A DNA stretch of 64,000 bases from NCBI GenBank assembly GCA_965205485.1, contig OZ242180.1:2304001-2368000 (forward strand), in the 5' to 3' direction. The notes under the pieces were generated by a model that did no database searches, was not told where the DNA came from, and saw only the letters and a program-made list of their open reading frames with translations. Origin of the DNA: Candidatus Latescibacterota bacterium (lineage in GTDB: Bacteria; Latescibacterota; UBA2968; GCA-2709665). Positions 56,593-61,662 of the stretch are shown in pieces (within the stretch, counting starts at the first letter, position 1; each line of letters begins with the position of its first letter). The position numbers were made by a program, and so were the translations under genes.

Positions 56593-56944
56593 CGTCAGCG
56601 GAAAACCTATACTTTGCCTGTGGCGATCAGTGTCACACGATCGCATCGCAAACGCCGGTGCGTCGCTGCGGTTAAGTCTGTCGCTTCCCTGTTTGGAAAC
56701 CTTCAGACCGCATGCACGGTTCGTGAGGGTCGTTTTCAGATTCCCATGACGTGACATTGGACGATTCCCGGCGATACGTCTTCGCACTGGGGGACGGATC
56801 GCAGTTGCACGTCGATCCGTCCCTTCGCATTTGACCCCGGCAAGCGTGTTTGCCGGCGATTTCGTTCAACCTGCCTGAAAACGCATGGTCCGCGCCACGG
56901 ATCCTTTCGTCAGGGCGCAGGGGACCTCTTGAACCCGGGGTTCC

Positions 56945-57437
56945 GTGGATGTCGATGCCTGCGCCGTTCGTGGTGTCGGTGCGGGACCAGAACGGGGACC
57001 CGTTCCCGGGCATGCCCGTGATCTTCAACGTCACAGGTGGCGGCGGCACGTTGTCTGCGACGGCGGCCAGGACCGATACGAGCGGGAACGCGTCCACGAC
57101 GCTCACGCTGGGTCCCGCGGCGGGGATGAACACCGTGACGGCGCGTGCGGCGGGCCTTTCGCTGGCGGTGTTTAGCGCCACGGCTTGGGGCAGCCCGGAC
57201 GTGAACGCCGACGGTACGGTGGATTTCGGGGATTTCGTGCTGTTCGCCCAGGGCTTCGGAACAGGCTGCGGCGAGGAGGGGTATGATGTCCGCTACGACC
57301 TTGACGGCGACGGGGCGATAGGCTTCGGCGACTTCGTCATCTTTGCCGGCGCATTCGGACAAATGCGAATCCCAATTGGACCGTGTGATACAATAGTCAC
57401 GATAAATTCATATATTATACCTACAATAAAGCATTAA
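56945..57437 (+). pseudogene. 5'-truncated remnant: Big_1 Ig-like domain + paired EF-hand/dockerin-like tag
   Basis: PFVVSVRDQNG...GGGGTLS...TDTSGNASTTLTLG, then DVNADGTVDFGDF...YDLDGDGAIGFGDF; no signal peptide or clear RBS. Confidence 0.65.
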
Positions 57438-57449
57438 ATCATAATTAAG

Positions 57450-57478
57450 TTGTGAAAATATCATTTCTATGTTATACT
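57450..57478 (+). promoter_or_regulatory. sigma70 promoter with extended -10 in an AT-rich patch
   Basis: TTGTGA-17 nt-TATACT with TGn immediately upstream of the -10. Confidence 0.7.
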
Positions 57479-57513
57479 ATGAACTTTAATATCATATAAA
57501 CGCAAACATGTTG

Positions 57514-57889
57514 GTCCGGCATCGTCTGACGATTTGAGGCGACGGCACAAGAAATTCTGTGGGGTCTTCCAGGTTCAGCGACGCGTTCGACACGTGATCC
57601 ACAACTCTGACGATAGTGAAAGCCGCGCGCCGGGTCTGGATTCGTTCCATTCCGGGAAGCTCGAATTCGGCCTCAGGACGAGTGGCGACGGAAATGGATT
57701 GGCATTTCAATGCACGGGACGGGAGCGGTCCAACAGCAGCCTGGCATGTGGGCGTCAGCCGCCTTAAGGGCAACGACGTGCCGACAGAGGTGGCAACCGG
57801 GATGCCGGCCTTGCCCTGCCGCTCCCAAACGTACCCCGGTGGCTTCTGATGGCCCGCTTCGCCGCTCTCGGATTGAACGATGCGTCGAC
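57514..57889 (+). ncRNA. Candidate large structured RNA of unknown family
   Basis: Many mutually compatible nested helices found by eye (see findings); G-U pairs favour the plus strand; lies downstream of the promoter. Confidence 0.5.
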
Positions 57890-58176
57890 GTATTACCCGG
57901 CGCGGCGGTACCGGAGCCCAATTAACAACGAAAGGATTTCTGCAATGAGGAAGACGGCTCGTATTGGGAAACGTATCCATCACACGCCGGCTGACGAAGG
58001 ATCTACTGCGGCATGGAATCGACCGCACGCGAATTTTACGTGTCGATACCTGAAGGGCGGCACGTTGGGCACCGCTCCCCTTCCCGTGTCGGGGAGGGGC
58101 CGGTTGAGGGGTCTCGATACCTGGCATCGTCAGCTAAACCCGGGTCTCGTAATTCGGTCTGAAAGAGGATGATGAC

Positions 58177-61100
58177 ATGAGGCGACGTGGACAATTGTTG
58201 GGTATGAATCAGAGGGCATTGATCCTCCTTTCTGCCGTGACGATTTTCACGTCCTTTCCTCTTGAGGGTCTCAATGCACAGATTCGTCAAACTGCGATGT
58301 CGGCCTCAAGCGGTGGCCATACCGCATGGGCGATTGGGCTTGAAACCGGGCCGTCCGCCATTACCGAGATCTGGGTCGAAGTACAACAAGCAAGCCCCCC
58401 TCGCCATCTCGGCACCTTTCCCGGCCGACCCGGACGACTGGAATGGATTGCAGGCGGGAAACGACTTCGCTACAGGGAGACGCCCTTACGGGTCCCCCTG
58501 CATACGCTTACCATGCTCCCGAAGCGGTCCGTACCCATTGTCCGGTCCAGTGTCTGGGAAATCGCCATCCGGGATGGTTCCATTTCGCGGGTGAACGATG
58601 CGGCAGACACGGATCCGGGAACAACGTCGGATGCGGCGCCCGCCGCCCCGCCGGACCCGAGTCCCGCCGCAAAGGCGGTGTTGTGGGGCGTGGCGACCGC
58701 ATTCAATGCCTCGGCCCTGGCCTACACCACCGTACACCGCTGGGAATTTCATTGGGCGGTGGACCGGTACCATAGAGCCTCCCGGGCGTGGAAGGCCCTG
58801 GCTGCGCGATTCGACAAGTACGGGCTCTACACGGAGCCAGTCCTGTCCTACGCGAAGTCGCTGGCCTTAACCTCGAGGAGTGCCTACGTGGCGCCCGGGG
58901 CACGCTGGGTGTGCAGGGACCACCTGACCGTCATCAGTGACGCCCTTGATGCCTATGAACATGCACACGAAAACCAGCGGCCGCCCACCCTCTTGACGCT
59001 CAAGAACTGGATTGAAACCCATACGTTGACGCACGCGGACTCTATCGTCATGAAAACGCTGTTCCGCTCCGCGATGGATCCCAAAAAAGGCCGCCGGATC
59101 AGTTACACACACGGATACCGGCCTGCCGCAGCGGACGGCGAGGCCGTTGTCACGAGCTTCTTTCACGACGGTTACCTGGTTGAATCCGTCCGCAGCGGCG
59201 CGGGTTACCGCACCGTCGACCGGCGTGCGGGCAAAACGCAGATCGACTCCCTCCTCAATCTCGGCACTGAACTAACCCGGCGAGAGCCGCTCAGGGCGAT
59301 CTCAACCCTCGAAATCCTGGCCGGCGTAGCTCAGGATTACGCCCCCGGGCACAGCAGGCTCGGGTTCGCCTATCTGGAAGTCGAGAAGCTGGTGCGGGCG
59401 GTCAATGCGTTCGAACGCGCGATCGAATGCGACCACACGCTGGCCGAGGCCTACTACGGCCTGGGTCTCACCTTCCGCAAGTGGCCCCGAGGATCGTACG
59501 ATGCCATCCGCTATTTTCAGAAAGCACTCCAATACGACCGGGACCACGTGGAAGCCCGGTTCAATATTGCCGATATACGGCACGAACTGAAAGAACACGA
59601 CGTGCGGCGAGAAATAAAGAAAGTGCTTGCAATAGACCCCAGGTTTCCCCCGGCCTATCTGCTGATGGGGAAATGGGTGGAGGAGTTCGAGAAGGACTAC
59701 GAGGAAGCCGCGCTCTACTATGCGCAATACATGGGCTTGCGGCCCGATGATCCTGAGGGGCGGAAGCGACTGGGAAGGATCTACCTGAGAACGAAGGACT
59801 ACGGCCGCATCCTGGAGGTATTGGAGGAATACGCCGTTCAGAATCCGGATGACGACGAGGTACTGCCCATTCTAGCTCAGGCCTGCATGAAGCTGGAAGC
59901 GTATGACAGGGCTCACGCCTTTTTCACGGACTACCTTGACGGCGCCGGCGATCAGGTGCGGGCGCACTATGAAGATATCCGGCTGGTCGCCTCCGCGGGG
60001 GCTCTCGCGGCACTTGACGAAACCCCGGCGGCCGACAGAGCCGCGTTCGTGGAGAAATTCTGGTCGGAACAGGACCCGGACCTGACCACGGCGGCCAACG
60101 AACGCCGCCTGGAACACTATCGGCGCGTCTGGTACGCACAGCAGAGTTTTTCGGAGGGAAAGCAGCCGTGGGACCAGCGCGGCGAGGTCTACGTCCGGTT
60201 TGGCGAGCCCGATCACAGGGCCCGCTCTGACGACATGAATTTCCAGCAATCCCTCGCGGTCCAGCGGGTCAAGGAACGGCTTTCCACGGCGCTGTACGGG
60301 GTTGCCGTGCCGCCGCACATGTTGATGAAGCCCACAACCAACGCCGACGGGGTGGGGCACCTCTGGGGCGACCTGCCGATTCAGTCCTCCGGCCCGGGTG
60401 CAAGTTACGTTGGTCCGGTCTACCCGGTGCGCAGCATGCGCGGCGGCGTGGGTGAGGCGCCGGGCTTTCGGGCACAGGTATATGACGGGGAACCGGGCGG
60501 GCAAGAAGATCAATCAGAATCCACGGGCATCGCACAGGATGAGTTTTCATCCGGCGCGGGCAGGGGCAGCGGGATCTTATCGGACTTCAAGCCGGTGACT
60601 TCCGGGGAAGACGCCTCGATGGTCCCGTGGGAGACGTGGACGTACGTCAACGTGGGCAGCGGAATCGAGATTACCTTCACCGACGAGTTCCACAACGGAA
60701 CCTATAACTACGCCCCTGCACCGCTGGATGCCCGCATTCCCGCGCGCCAGCAGGCGATGCTGAACCGCTACAATCCCCGCAACGTCTATCGCATGGCCGC
60801 CGCGGCGCAGCCGAACTACTTCGTGCCGCCGAAAAACACGATGCCGATGGAATTCTATTTCAATTCGGCGGATTTCAGGAGTGAAAGGGATTTCCGGACC
60901 GCCCTGGAAGTCTACGTGGGGATACCGCGACACCAGGGGCGCTACATGGTCGATGACGACCGGACGGAAATATGGGTCGACCGGACCGTGGCGCTGCGGA
61001 ATCCGACAACCGGCGCCGTCTACCGGAGCGAGGACAAGGTACACTTCGCGGCGAAGGGGAACGTGACCGGAGAAAGGAGCGCGTTCGTTCCGGACCTCGC

Positions 61101-61662
61101 GCGCATGGACGTGCCCCCCGGGCGCTACCGGATGGAAGTTAAAATAAAGGACAACCTGTCCGTACAGCACGGGCGGTATCGTCAGGACATTGAAATCGAG
61201 TCCTATGAACGGGACAGCCTCCAGGTGAGCGACCTGGAACTGGCCTGGCGGATTTCCGGCCGCAAGCACGAGGACAAATTCAACAAAGGCGCGCTGTGGG
61301 TCATTCCGATGCCAACGCGGACCTACAGGGTGGGCCAGAATGTATTCGTCTACTACGAAATATACAACCTGACGCAGGATGAATTCGGTCTGACGAACTA
61401 CCGGGTTTCCTACACGGTCACGAAGGAGGACGGCTTCAGCCCCCGGGGTATCATCACCAGCCTTATACGGTGGAAGAAAGGCAAACGTGAGGAACTGGAA
61501 GTCACGTACGAAATGGAGGGTGAGGATACCATGGAAGTCGAATACGTGGAACTCAAGCTGGAAAACCGCCCCGCGGGCAAGTATTTCCTGAACGTCTCAG
61601 TTGTCGATTTGAAGAGCGGTGAAACAGCTTGGAAAAAGGCCAGCTTCATTCTCGCCCGATAG
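58177..61662 (+). CDS. TPR-containing GWxTD-domain protein with long N-terminal extension
   Basis: Signal peptide, TPRs, FWSEQDPD..TAANERRLEHYRRVWYA..PWDQRGEVYVRFGEPD, PWETWTY, YYEIYNL. Confidence 0.85.
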   Translation: MRRRGQLLGMNQRALILLSAVTIFTSFPLEGLNAQIRQTAMSASSGGHTAWAIGLETGPSAITEIWVEVQQASPPRHLGTFPGRPGRLEWIAGGKRLRYRETPLRVPLHTLTMLPKRSVPIVRSSVWEIAIRDGSISRVNDAADTDPGTTSDAAPAAPPDPSPAAKAVLWGVATAFNASALAYTTVHRWEFHWAVDRYHRASRAWKALAARFDKYGLYTEPVLSYAKSLALTSRSAYVAPGARWVCRDHLTVISDALDAYEHAHENQRPPTLLTLKNWIETHTLTHADSIVMKTLFRSAMDPKKGRRISYTHGYRPAAADGEAVVTSFFHDGYLVESVRSGAGYRTVDRRAGKTQIDSLLNLGTELTRREPLRAISTLEILAGVAQDYAPGHSRLGFAYLEVEKLVRAVNAFERAIECDHTLAEAYYGLGLTFRKWPRGSYDAIRYFQKALQYDRDHVEARFNIADIRHELKEHDVRREIKKVLAIDPRFPPAYLLMGKWVEEFEKDYEEAALYYAQYMGLRPDDPEGRKRLGRIYLRTKDYGRILEVLEEYAVQNPDDDEVLPILAQACMKLEAYDRAHAFFTDYLDGAGDQVRAHYEDIRLVASAGALAALDETPAADRAAFVEKFWSEQDPDLTTAANERRLEHYRRVWYAQQSFSEGKQPWDQRGEVYVRFGEPDHRARSDDMNFQQSLAVQRVKERLSTALYGVAVPPHMLMKPTTNADGVGHLWGDLPIQSSGPGASYVGPVYPVRSMRGGVGEAPGFRAQVYDGEPGGQEDQSESTGIAQDEFSSGAGRGSGILSDFKPVTSGEDASMVPWETWTYVNVGSGIEITFTDEFHNGTYNYAPAPLDARIPARQQAMLNRYNPRNVYRMAAAAQPNYFVPPKNTMPMEFYFNSADFRSERDFRTALEVYVGIPRHQGRYMVDDDRTEIWVDRTVALRNPTTGAVYRSEDKVHFAAKGNVTGERSAFVPDLARMDVPPGRYRMEVKIKDNLSVQHGRYRQDIEIESYERDSLQVSDLELAWRISGRKHEDKFNKGALWVIPMPTRTYRVGQNVFVYYEIYNLTQDEFGLTNYRVSYTVTKEDGFSPRGIITSLIRWKKGKREELEVTYEMEGEDTMEVEYVELKLENRPAGKYFLNVSVVDLKSGETAWKKASFILAR

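What the first reader, a model, noticed from the sequence alone, without database searches (positions are those of the whole stretch)
57514..57889. Candidate novel ~370-nt highly structured RNA upstream of a small ORF and a GWxTD gene
Seen, all nested: closing helix GCATCGT(57519-25)/ACGATGC(57877-83). Arm 1: TTTGAGGC(57533-40)/GCCTCAGG(57670-77), enclosing CGGC/GCCG, TGTGGG.TC(57558-66)/GATCCACA(57596-603) and hairpin CCGGG..TGGA/TCCA.TCCGG(57630-55). Arm 2, a ~190-nt rod: GAGTGGCGA(57680-88)/TCGCCGCTC(57859-67), side hairpin GAAATG/CATTTC, GGGAGCGG(57721-28)/CCGCTCCC(57819-26), CTGGCAT(57741-47)/ATGCCGG(57802-08), GCCGCCT(57758-64)/AGGTGGC(57788-94), tip GGCA/TGCC. G-U pairs point to the plus strand. 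It begins ~30 nt after the predicted TSS and ends ~55 nt before an AAGGA-ATG (57945). It lacks RNase P, tmRNA, group II intron, T-box and cobalamin signatures. Inference: an undescribed large ncRNA or leader, possibly the RNA part of an RNA-protein system whose ORF has decayed; arm 2 alone is 6S-sized.
Basis: partly seen in the sequence, partly recalled or inferred. Interest (0 to 1): 0.8.

Follow-up and report, generated by a model that had tools for sequence, protein, structure and literature searches.

The report
New three-armed leader RNA, atypical copy
Inside the flagged stretch sits one unusual copy of a small, previously uncatalogued three-armed RNA fold that one genus of sponge-associated bacteria places in front of genes for secreted and surface proteins, so it is probably a new gene-control element, though much smaller than the 370-base structure first proposed.

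Summary
The 376-nt fold as drawn is not better than chance: MFE z = +0.16 on the plus strand and +0.41 on the minus strand. Its outer helices and arm 1 are missing from the closest paralogue.

The inner part, window 57721-57826, is real. It is one copy of a 105-128-nt three-way-junction RNA (P1, P2, P3-P4).
- There are 42 matches, in 13 of 14 genomes of one genus. None were found in 117 other genomes of the class or 136 of a phylum sample.
- 24 of 27 base pairs show compensatory changes.
- Rfam 15 has no match, even at E<=10.
- No protein homologue covers the region.

Copies lie co-directionally upstream of genes that mostly carry signal peptides: M60 and M12-like peptidases, LRR, cohesin, dockerin-like and GWxTD proteins. 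Some copies are in tandem.

Best reading: a new cis-acting leader RNA bound by an unknown ligand or protein. The mechanism is not shown.

The window copy is atypical. A near-identical strain lacks the core at this locus.

This scan had not noted the motif before.

The parts
57450..57478 (+). Sigma-70-like promoter match (TTGTGA, 17 nt, TATACT) in the AT-rich spacer; the presumed start of the leader transcript.
   Evidence: 1 site found against 1.1 expected in shuffles, so this is only a consensus match. GC falls to 0.37 here.
57495..57712 (+). Subtype-specific upstream part of the leader. It is shared at 75-84% identity with other 'type A' copies.
   Evidence: The consensus fold of 8 copies is weak: -5.2 kcal/mol, with 5 of 24 pairs showing double changes.
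57721..57728 (+). P1, 5' strand (GGGAGCGG).
   Evidence: Pairs with 57819-57826. 7 of 8 P1 pairs covary across 41 distinct copies. P1 is also recovered from a MAFFT-only alignment.
57729..57734 (+). J1/2 (UCCAAC; family consensus U-Y-A-A-A-C), with near-invariant unpaired U and A.
   Evidence: Column counts: U in 40 of 41, A in 36 of 41.
57735..57763 (+). P2 hairpin: AGCAGC 57735-40 pairs with GCCGCC 57758-63. This copy has two A-C mismatches where relatives have GGCGGC.
   Evidence: pairs 24-52 and 27-49 broken only in the window row. All 8 P2 pairs covary in the family.
57764..57767 (+). J2/3 (UUAA), ending in the near-invariant AA.
   Evidence: A in 39 of 41 and A in 40 of 41.
57768..57773 (+). 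P3, 5' strand (GGGCAA); pairs with 57811-57816.
   Evidence: P3 is recovered without the model; AU and GC alternate at its inner pairs.
57774..57779 (+). 5' bulge between P3 and P4 (CGACGU; family consensus C-A-n-n-U).
57780..57809 (+). P4: GCCGAC 57780-85 pairs with GCCGGC 57804-09, with one A-C mismatch at 57784/57805. The type-A apical part is AGAG, then the mini-hairpin UGG-CAA-CCG (57791-99), then GGAU.
   Evidence: The mini-hairpin keeps its pairing in the divergent copies L156 and L157 (my reading of the sequences).
57811..57816 (+). P3, 3' strand (UUGCCC).
57817..57818 (+). J3/1 (UG), near-invariant.
   Evidence: U in 40 of 41, G in 40 of 41.
57819..57826 (+). P1, 3' strand (CCGCUCCC).
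57934..58172 (+). RBS-like AAGGA and ATG (57945) opening a 75-codon frame. Probably the stub of the gene this leader cassette once preceded.
   Evidence: It aligns with the RBS and ATG of the paralogue's metalloprotease gene only for about the first dozen bases. No Pfam family. It overlaps a repeat element.
57983..58116 (+). Multi-copy repeat element, REP-like, lying between the leader and the gene.
   Evidence: One search lists 22 further partial matches in the genome.
58177..61662 (+). Downstream gene: a 1161-aa signal-peptide protein with TPR repeats and a GWxTD domain.
   Evidence: GWxTD_dom scores 24.1 bits, just under the 26.9-bit cut-off; TPR families pass.

Best explanation
Window 57721-57826 is one copy of a previously uncatalogued structured RNA, 105-128 nt long.

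The fold is a three-way junction:
- P1, 8 bp.
- P2, a variable hairpin.
- P3, 6-7 bp, stacked through a 5' bulge on P4.
- Near-invariant unpaired bases at the junctions: U-Y-A-A-A-C, A-A and U-G.

The motif is transcribed on the plus strand as part of long 5' leaders. It most likely acts in cis on the downstream gene, with the invariant junction recognised by an unknown small ligand or RNA-binding protein.

The genes it marks are mainly secreted and surface proteins of a sponge-associated Latescibacterota genus.

Shown: the fold, its covariation, its strand, its narrow distribution, its absence from Rfam and its gene neighbourhood.

Inferred: that it is regulatory, what binds it, and how the signal reaches expression. 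In 17 of 28 'type B' copies the P4 loop mimics the 16S rRNA tail and could mask the ribosome-binding site.

The window copy is of 'type A' and is atypical. It now sits about 350 nt ahead of a GWxTD gene whose orthologues do without it.
For: Homologues
- A paralogue with 79% identity lies elsewhere in the same genome.
- Model R2 finds 5 copies in this genome.
- R2 finds 42 matches at E<=0.001, in 13 of 14 genomes of the genus.

Covariation
- On 41 distinct copies, 91.0% of cells pair, against 74.9% in shuffles.
- 24 of 27 pairs have double changes, and 0 of 500 shuffles reach any measure.
- Slid controls pair only 37-60% of cells.
- A MAFFT-only alignment of 39 of the 41 distinct copies (I left out L167:1641-1757 and L172:1501-1619 as near-duplicates of copies kept) recovers P1 and P3 independently: 12 of 17 predicted pairs have double changes.

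Single-sequence folds
- 10 of 12 copies give the same three-way junction. z runs from -1.2 to -5.7, and 11 of 12 are at or below -2.2.

Not protein-coding
- Indels between copies are not multiples of three.
- No Pfam or protein hit.

Strand
- Reverse-strand hits score 23 bits or less.

Gene context
- 34 of 41 copies have a co-directional ORF of at least 100 aa starting within 520 nt.
- 21 of those 34 look like signal-peptide proteins by a simple heuristic, against 766 of 2734 long ORFs genome-wide (28%).
- Pfam names among them: M60 peptidase (4), M12/M66-like plus Big_1 (2), LRR (3), LDL-receptor-B propeller, EPTP/PKD, lipocalin, cohesin, GWxTD.
- One copy (L159) starts a few bases after a TTGACA, 17 nt, TAAATA promoter match (read).

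16S mimicry
- The organism's 16S rRNA ends ...GGAUCACCUCCUUUCU.
- 17 of 28 type-B P4 loops hold CCUCC or CUCCU.
- The 20 downstream starts I inspected mostly have purine-rich (GGAG/GAGG-type) Shine-Dalgarno sequences just upstream.

Constraint on the window leader
- G000 against G014: 1 difference in 57495-57908, 8 in 57377-57494, 6 in 57909-58176, and 15 in the first 600 nt of the gene.
Against: - No RNA data exist for this organism in what I could reach, so transcription and transcript ends are unknown.
- I found no expression platform:
  - no consistent terminator after the motif;
  - no excess pairing between the P4 loop and downstream sequence over shuffled loops, z near 0;
  - no specific pairing of the P1 3' strand with ribosome-binding sites.
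- Restriction to one genus, 1-8 copies per genome, tandem copies and varied downstream genes also fit a mobile or selfish RNA.
- About 7 copies have no convincing co-directional gene nearby, and a few face the 3' end of a convergent ORF.
- Copies in related species are not independent, so the shuffle test overstates the covariation and the signal-peptide enrichment is rough.
- Alignment A6 is fitted to the model's structure.
- For the window copy specifically:
  - the family fold is about 10 kcal/mol worse than the rod;
  - the core is replaced by 496 other bases in a strain whose gene is 99% identical;
  - orthologues at 81% identity have unrelated 5' regions.
  This copy may therefore be a relic.
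Confidence: 0.6

Rival explanations
1. The motif is a self-contained RNA: a small trans-acting RNA, a self-cleaving ribozyme, or a selfish mobile structured element. On this reading it merely lands in intergenic DNA and does not regulate the gene behind it.
For: - Multi-copy, at 1-8 per genome.
- Tandem pairs or arrays in G000, G006, G007, G009, G010 and G014.
- Restricted to one genus.
- Heterogeneous neighbours, including two copies next to transposase genes (L161, L240).
- The core is present or absent between near-identical strains.
- A three-way junction with short invariant junctions is also the layout of some ribozymes (recalled).
- The CU-rich anti-Shine-Dalgarno loops resemble the seed loops of some Gram-positive small RNAs (recalled).
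Against: - Orientation is biased towards the downstream gene: 34 of 41 copies have a co-directional ORF within 520 nt.
- No terminator follows the motif.
- No terminal repeats or target duplications were noticed, though I did not search for them systematically.
- Orthologous M60, M12-like and LRR genes of different species keep the motif in the same upstream place.
- No match to any ribozyme family in Rfam.
Confidence: 0.17
2. The conservation acts on DNA, not RNA. The element would be a REP- or MITE-like palindromic repeat, or a promoter region. The type-A P4 loop reads TGGCA, 7 nt, TGC, like a sigma-54 -24/-12 site, and inverted repeats could serve as activator sites.
For: - The type-A loop matches the recalled sigma-54 core spacing (GG, 10 nt, GC) in 10 of 13 type-A copies (read).
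- Sigma-54 activator genes lie next to two copies.
- The same intergenic region holds true REP-like repeats.
Against: - 24 of 27 pairs change on both sides while keeping Watson-Crick or G-U pairing. G-U pairs are frequent on one strand only, which points to RNA. Protein-binding palindromes conserve sequence, not pairing.
- Type-B copies lack the sigma-54-like string.
- TGGCA, 7 nt, TGC occurs 158 times in the genome, so the match is weak.
- The copy number is far below that of REP families.
Confidence: 0.08
3. One reading: the whole of 57514-57889 is one large (~370-nt) structured ncRNA or leader with a closing helix and two arms, and arm 2 is a 6S-sized rod.
For: - All listed helices exist in the sequence.
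- The rod is the MFE of the window core, with z -2.64.
- The whole of 57495-57908 differs at only one base between G000 and G014, while the flanks differ more.
Against: - z = +0.16 for the full region.
- The outer helices and arm 1 are absent from the paralogue.
- The rod shows no covariation: 65 of 500 shuffles are as high.
- The rod is less stable than the three-way junction in 10 of the 11 type-A copies tested. The window is the only exception.
- No 6S or other Rfam hit.
- The low divergence lies inside a 2-kb near-identical tract, 56777-58776, which also covers the neighbouring genes.
Confidence: 0.05

Closest known systems
Orphan riboswitch candidates and second-messenger riboswitches (c-di-GMP-I/II; Rfam RF01051, RF01786 - accession numbers recalled)
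   Same: - A compact aptamer-sized fold in 5' leaders, with invariant unpaired junction bases and covarying stems.
- Sometimes found in tandem.
- Placed before a mixed set of genes for secreted, surface and signalling proteins rather than one metabolic pathway.
   Different: - No sequence or structure match to any Rfam family.
- No ligand is known.
- No recognisable expression platform.
- Found in one genus only, whereas validated riboswitch classes are usually far wider.
Protein-bound leader RNAs that tag a regulon, for example leaders recognised by specialised NusG-type antiterminators or by translational repressors (recalled, not searched here)
   Same: - One lineage-specific structured leader is shared by many otherwise unrelated genes for surface or secreted products.
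- The sequence-invariant single-stranded bases are suited to protein recognition.
   Different: - No partner protein has been identified.
- The motif is not confined to long operons.
- Nothing was tested here beyond position and conservation.
6S RNA
   Different: - No hit to 6S models in Rfam.
- The rod is not conserved.
- The family fold is a three-way junction of about 110 nt, present in 1-8 copies per genome and adjacent to genes.
REP / MITE-like intergenic repeats
   Same: - Multi-copy, GC-rich, self-complementary and intergenic.
- Presence or absence varies between strains.
   Different: - Strand-specific G-U pairs and a three-way junction with compensatory changes.
- Low copy number.
- Orientation tied to the downstream gene.
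- A true REP-like family sits next to it and looks quite different.

Membership tests
Any Rfam 15 family (including 6S, RNase P, tmRNA, group II intron, T-box, cobalamin, c-di-GMP, and the twister and hammerhead ribozymes) | A covariance-model match at or near the family's gathering score. | tested here: not met
   - 0 matches at gathering score in the 64-kb window.
- Nothing within 57500-57900 at E<=10.
- 0 matches at E<=1 in 13 loci holding divergent copies.
- 0 matches at E<=10 on a tandem pair.
Riboswitch (as a functional class) | A conserved, covarying aptamer fold with invariant unpaired bases, located in a 5' leader. | tested here: met
Riboswitch (as a functional class) | An expression platform: a terminator/antiterminator pair, or an alternative helix that sequesters the Shine-Dalgarno sequence. 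| tested here: inconclusive
   - No consistent terminator.
- No pairing signal above controls.
- Anti-Shine-Dalgarno-like P4 loops occur in 17 of 28 type-B copies.
Riboswitch (as a functional class) | Direct binding of a small ligand that changes the fold or the expression. | not testable with these tools
   This needs in-line probing or reporter assays.
6S RNA | A roughly 180-nt rod with a central bubble, conserved across relatives, as a single housekeeping gene. | tested here: not met
   - The rod is not conserved.
- The rod is favoured only in the window copy.
- Multi-copy.
- No Rfam 6S hit.
REP / MITE repeat | High copy number, no strand or gene-orientation preference, and conservation of the palindrome at DNA level. 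| tested here: not met
   - 1-8 copies per genome.
- 34 of 41 copies are co-directional with a nearby downstream ORF.
- G-U pairs are common on one strand.
Sigma-54 promoter (type-A loop) | A -24 GG and a -12 GC at fixed spacing, with the flanking consensus (recalled), present wherever the element occurs. | tested here: inconclusive
   - Present in 10 of 13 type-A copies and in 0 of 28 type-B copies (read).
- 158 loose matches genome-wide.
Decayed protein-coding gene | Residual similarity to a protein family, or a conserved reading frame. | tested here: not met
   - 0 Pfam families at E<=1 for 6 frames.
- No protein at E<=0.001 for the 211-aa frame. Only proteins of 116-370 aa were searched.
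- Indels of 10, 4, 2 and 1 nt between copies.

The most novel reading that the evidence does not exclude
The three-way junction is the aptamer of a new riboswitch class, or a new ribozyme. It would sense a symbiosis-related signal, either a host-derived metabolite or a bacterial second messenger. Through it, a sponge symbiont would switch a whole set of host-interaction genes on or off together: mucin-type M60 peptidases, LRR, WD40 and LDL-repeat 'eukaryote-like' proteins, and cohesin/dockerin surface proteins. In type-B copies the 16S-tail-mimicking P4 loop would serve as the built-in ribosome-binding-site mask.
Probability: 0.15. Interest if true: 0.85.

Novelty: new member of a known kind. 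Interest (0 to 1): 0.55.

Why it matters
Sponge symbionts such as this one cannot be grown, and how they control the secreted and 'eukaryote-like' proteins thought to mediate host contact is unknown.

A single RNA tag shared by the leaders of such genes gives a concrete, testable handle on that regulation:
- It defines a candidate regulon from sequence alone.
- It provides a roughly 110-nt RNA that can be made and probed in vitro for ligands, proteins or self-cleavage.

It also adds a well-supported new family, with 41 distinct copies and 24 of 27 pairs covarying, from a phylum with essentially no described regulatory RNAs. My two literature searches found none (listings only).

For the scan, it shows that a hand-drawn large fold in GC-rich DNA can be chance overall and still enclose a real, smaller motif.

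Tried and rejected
- **Genome contigs pattern scan.** My pattern was too loose. Of the more than 120 matching stretches, none of the 80 fetched loci (L021-L100) carries the P1 strands.
- **Metagenome pattern scan.** 62 loci were returned. Only 1 (L189, identical to the G007 copy) matches model R2 strongly, and 1 more only weakly. The rest are chance matches inside coding sequence.
- **Viral contigs.** 0 matches.
- **RNA evidence.** No RNA holder is listed for this stretch. The runs laid were contigs only, so nothing can be said about expression.
- **Expression-platform tests.**
  - P4 loop against 400 nt downstream: no excess over shuffled loops (after a time-out).
  - P1 3' strand against downstream sites: own strands pair no better than other copies' strands.
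  - T-run and hairpin scan: no consistent terminator.
Tested as a family structure and rejected.
- **Upstream domain 57590-57722.** Only a weak consensus fold.
- **Sigma-54 reading of the type-A loop.** Kept only as a minor rival.
- **Coding potential.** Rejected.
- **Earlier notes of this scan.** Nothing on this place or sequence. The word search returned only unrelated phage and archaeal leaders.
- **Literature.** 'Latescibacter' plus 'riboswitch' gave 3 papers, none about such a motif by title or abstract. A broader search gave general motif-discovery papers. I read listings only, no full texts.

Full report
**1. The observation**

As a whole they are not more than chance.
- The 376-nt stretch 57514-57889 folds to -148.4 kcal/mol. 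Dinucleotide shuffles average -149.4 (sd 6.4), so z = +0.16, and 56 of 100 shuffles fold at least as well.
- The minus strand gives z = +0.41.
- The region is GC-rich (0.57-0.65) and follows an AT-rich spacer (0.37). Many helices are therefore expected.
- Rfam 15 gives no match at gathering score in the whole window. At E<=10 it gives nothing inside 57500-57900.

**2. A smaller conserved element**

A blastn search of the window's own genome found a paralogue.
- It lies at G000 C1:1223844-1224133, on the minus strand, with 79% identity to window 57545-57835.
- The pairwise alignment shows homology ending just after CCGCTCCC.
- The closing helix and arm 1 are also not kept.

Blastn in relatives found matches in 8 of 14 genomes of the same genus and in 0 of 46 others. 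Aligning these copies showed a sharply bounded core of about 106 nt, window 57721-57826. The flanks diverge, and indels of 10, 4, 2 and 1 nt rule out a reading frame.

**3. The family**

I built a covariance model from 11 copies with a hand-drawn structure (R1) and a second from 27 copies (R2).

| Search | With a match | Without a match |
|---|---|---|
| Own genome | 5 copies | |
| Same genus | 13 of 14 genomes | 1 |
| Rest of the class | 0 | 117 |
| Rest of a phylum sample | 0 | 136 |

- One search lists 42 matches, at 1-8 per genome.
- A metagenome pattern scan added only one true copy, identical to one already held.
- Viral contigs gave none.
- My genome-contig scan was too loose and gave only chance hits.
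- None of 13 loci with divergent copies matches Rfam at E<=1. A tandem pair does not match at E<=10.

**4. The fold**

The consensus reads, 5' to 3':
- P1, 8 bp
- U-Y-A-A-A-C
- P2, a variable hairpin
- A-A
- P3, GGGCRRC paired with GYYGYCC
- a 5' bulge, C-A-n-n-U
- P4, GCCGG... paired with ...CCGGC, with a variable tip
- U-G
- P1, 3' strand

Support for this fold:
- On the 41 distinct copies aligned to the model, 91.0% of cells pair, against 74.9% after shuffling.
- 24 of 27 pairs show changes on both sides. None of 500 shuffles reaches the observed values. Sliding the partners by 1-3 columns drops pairing to 37-60%.
- That alignment is fitted to the model, and the copies are related, so I also aligned 39 of the 41 distinct copies with MAFFT alone, leaving out L167:1641-1757 and L172:1501-1619 as near-duplicates of copies kept. 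RNAalifold on that alignment recovers P1 and P3, and 12 of its 17 predicted pairs have double changes.
- Folded singly, 10 of 12 copies give the same three-way junction as their MFE. z runs from -1.2 to -5.7.
- Reverse-strand hits score 23 bits or less, and G-U pairs are common. The plus strand, the strand of the downstream gene, is therefore the RNA.

**5. Two subtypes**

| | Type A | Type B |
|---|---|---|
| Copies | 13, including the window | 28 |
| P2 | long | variable |
| P4 tip | nearly invariant: AGAG, then the mini-hairpin UGG-CAA-CCG | pyrimidine-rich |
| CCUCC or CUCCU in the tip | none | 17 of 28 |

- The genome's 16S rRNA ends ...GGAUCACCUCCUUUCU. Several type-B tips repeat ACCUCCUU exactly.
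- The 20 downstream starts I inspected mostly have purine-rich (GGAG/GAGG-type) Shine-Dalgarno sequences, so masking is conceivable.
- I could not show it. Duplex energies between loops and downstream sequence do not exceed shuffled loops. P1 3' strands do not pair specifically with ribosome-binding sites. No consistent terminator follows the motif.

**6. Gene context**

- 34 of 41 copies have a co-directional ORF of at least 100 aa starting within 520 nt.
- 21 of those 34 look like signal-peptide proteins by a simple heuristic. The same heuristic flags 766 of 2734 long ORFs genome-wide, or 28%.
- These counts are rough. Tandem copies share a gene, and orthologous loci are not independent.

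Pfam names for the downstream genes:
- M60 peptidase (4)
- M12/M66-like peptidase with Big_1 (2)
- LRR proteins (3)
- an LDL-receptor-B propeller
- an EPTP/PKD protein
- a lipocalin lipoprotein
- a cohesin protein of more than 1585 aa
- the GWxTD/TPR protein of the window
- a receiver-PAS-kinase gene followed by a sigma-54 activator, behind a tandem pair (two genomes)

A few copies precede small ORFs of unknown standing or lie near transposase genes. Tandem copies occur in six genomes.

Earlier notes of this scan call the genome an uncultured Latescibacterota sponge symbiont with cohesin/dockerin surface proteins (unchecked). The Pfam hits here, and a run labelled 'sponge metagenome' that holds the locus, are in line with that.

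**7. The window copy**

It scores lowest among the ten full-length (122-nt) type-A hits: 124.7 bits with R1, against 126-137 for eight of the others.

Its pairing is weakened at three places.
- P2 reads AGCAGC where relatives read GGCGGC, which gives two A-C mismatches.
- P4 reads GCCGAC where relatives read GCCGGC, which gives one more.

The consequences for the fold:
- With the family fold enforced it reaches -46.6 to -48.3 kcal/mol.
- In the other ten type-A copies the three-way junction is at least as stable as the rod, by 0.5 to 12 kcal/mol.
- The rod uses GCCGCC, the P2 3' strand, against GGUGGC in the P4 tip. This pairing is possible in all type-A copies (88% of cells), but it shows only one-sided changes. 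It could be an alternative state or a coincidence.

The locus history:
- The gene's orthologues in G003 and G013 (81% identity) have unrelated 5' regions without the motif.
- In G004 (99% identity) and in run X5, window 57685-57963 is replaced by 496 other bases that include REP-like modules.
- The leader cassette therefore arrived recently in front of this GWxTD gene. It consists of the AT-rich promoter region, the type-A leader, an RBS and an ATG.
- Its own ORF is now a 75-codon stub that runs into a repeat.
- Against simple decay: G000 and G014 differ at only 1 base in 57495-57908, against 8 in 57377-57494, 6 in 57909-58176, and 15 in the first 600 nt of the gene. This is one comparison inside a 2-kb near-identical tract.

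**8. What it most likely is**

I rate the reality of the RNA family at about 0.9.
- The most likely reading is a cis-acting leader element whose invariant junction is bound by a ligand or a protein (about 0.6).
- The main rival is a self-contained or mobile RNA (about 0.17).
- A DNA-level reading comes next (about 0.08). The type-A tip resembles a sigma-54 -24/-12 site, but 158 such strings occur in the genome, type B lacks it, and G-U-rich covariation argues for RNA.

**9. Comparison with known systems and novelty**

The element behaves like an orphan riboswitch candidate or a protein-bound regulon leader. It is a member of no catalogued family, and the 6S, REP and protein-gene tests fail (see the membership table).

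It is a new member of a known kind, a structured 5' leader RNA. It stands out for its link to secreted, host-interaction-type genes in an uncultured symbiont, and it is limited by its one-genus range and by the lack of any RNA or binding data.

Noticed in passing
window 57983-58116 (core about 57989-58066): A repeat of about 80 nt, with a further module of about 40 nt, lies between the leader and the GWxTD gene. The genome holds about 20 partial copies at 73-82% identity. Two blocks are well conserved (GACGAAGGATCTACTGCRGCAT and GTGTCGATACCTGAGAGGCAGCACGT). There is no Rfam match, and the copies are not consistently upstream of genes. It looks like a REP- or MITE-like family.
   Followed up: partly
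window 57685-57963, against L011 1672-2167 (G004) and run X5: A strain whose GWxTD gene is 99% identical carries 496 unrelated bases in place of these 279 nt, which include the motif core. The last ~170 nt of that segment consist of short modules repeated at many places in G000.
   Followed up: partly
window 58177-61662 and the genus genomes: The GWxTD/TPR protein family is greatly expanded. Each of the 15 genomes of the genus gave 13-23 matches at E<=1e-50. Only this lineage's copy has the motif upstream.
   Followed up: no
window 57790-57806 (type-A P4 tip): The string TGGCAACCGGGATGC fits the recalled sigma-54 -24/-12 spacing (GG, 10 nt, GC). Sigma-54 activator genes lie next to two other copies (L158; G000 C1:769203-771146).
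   Followed up: partly
L141, L150 (M12-like peptidase genes) against L151 (M60 peptidase gene): Genes for different enzymes share the same 3' leader, RBS and first signal-peptide codons (MRTRLS, MRARLS, MSARLS). Promoter-leader-signal-peptide cassettes therefore seem to have been shuffled between secreted-protein genes.
   Followed up: no
L155 1501-1621 (G007 C31:21545-21665): One type-B-like copy has a purine-rich P4 tip (CUGGGGGAGGAUG). This is the complement of the CU-rich tips, and it lies about 700 nt downstream of a copy whose tip ends UCUUCCUCCCC.
   Followed up: no
window 56777-58776 against G014: G000 and G014 are nearly identical over this 2-kb tract (0-6 differences per 100 nt). They differ by about 20 per 100 nt from 58777 to 59076. 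This suggests a recent recombination tract spanning the leader and both gene ends.
   Followed up: no
L166 (G012 C2:4298772-4298898): A truncated copy. The 5' half of a type-A motif (P1 5' strand, P2, start of P3) is followed by unrelated sequence, 8 kb from a complete copy.
   Followed up: no
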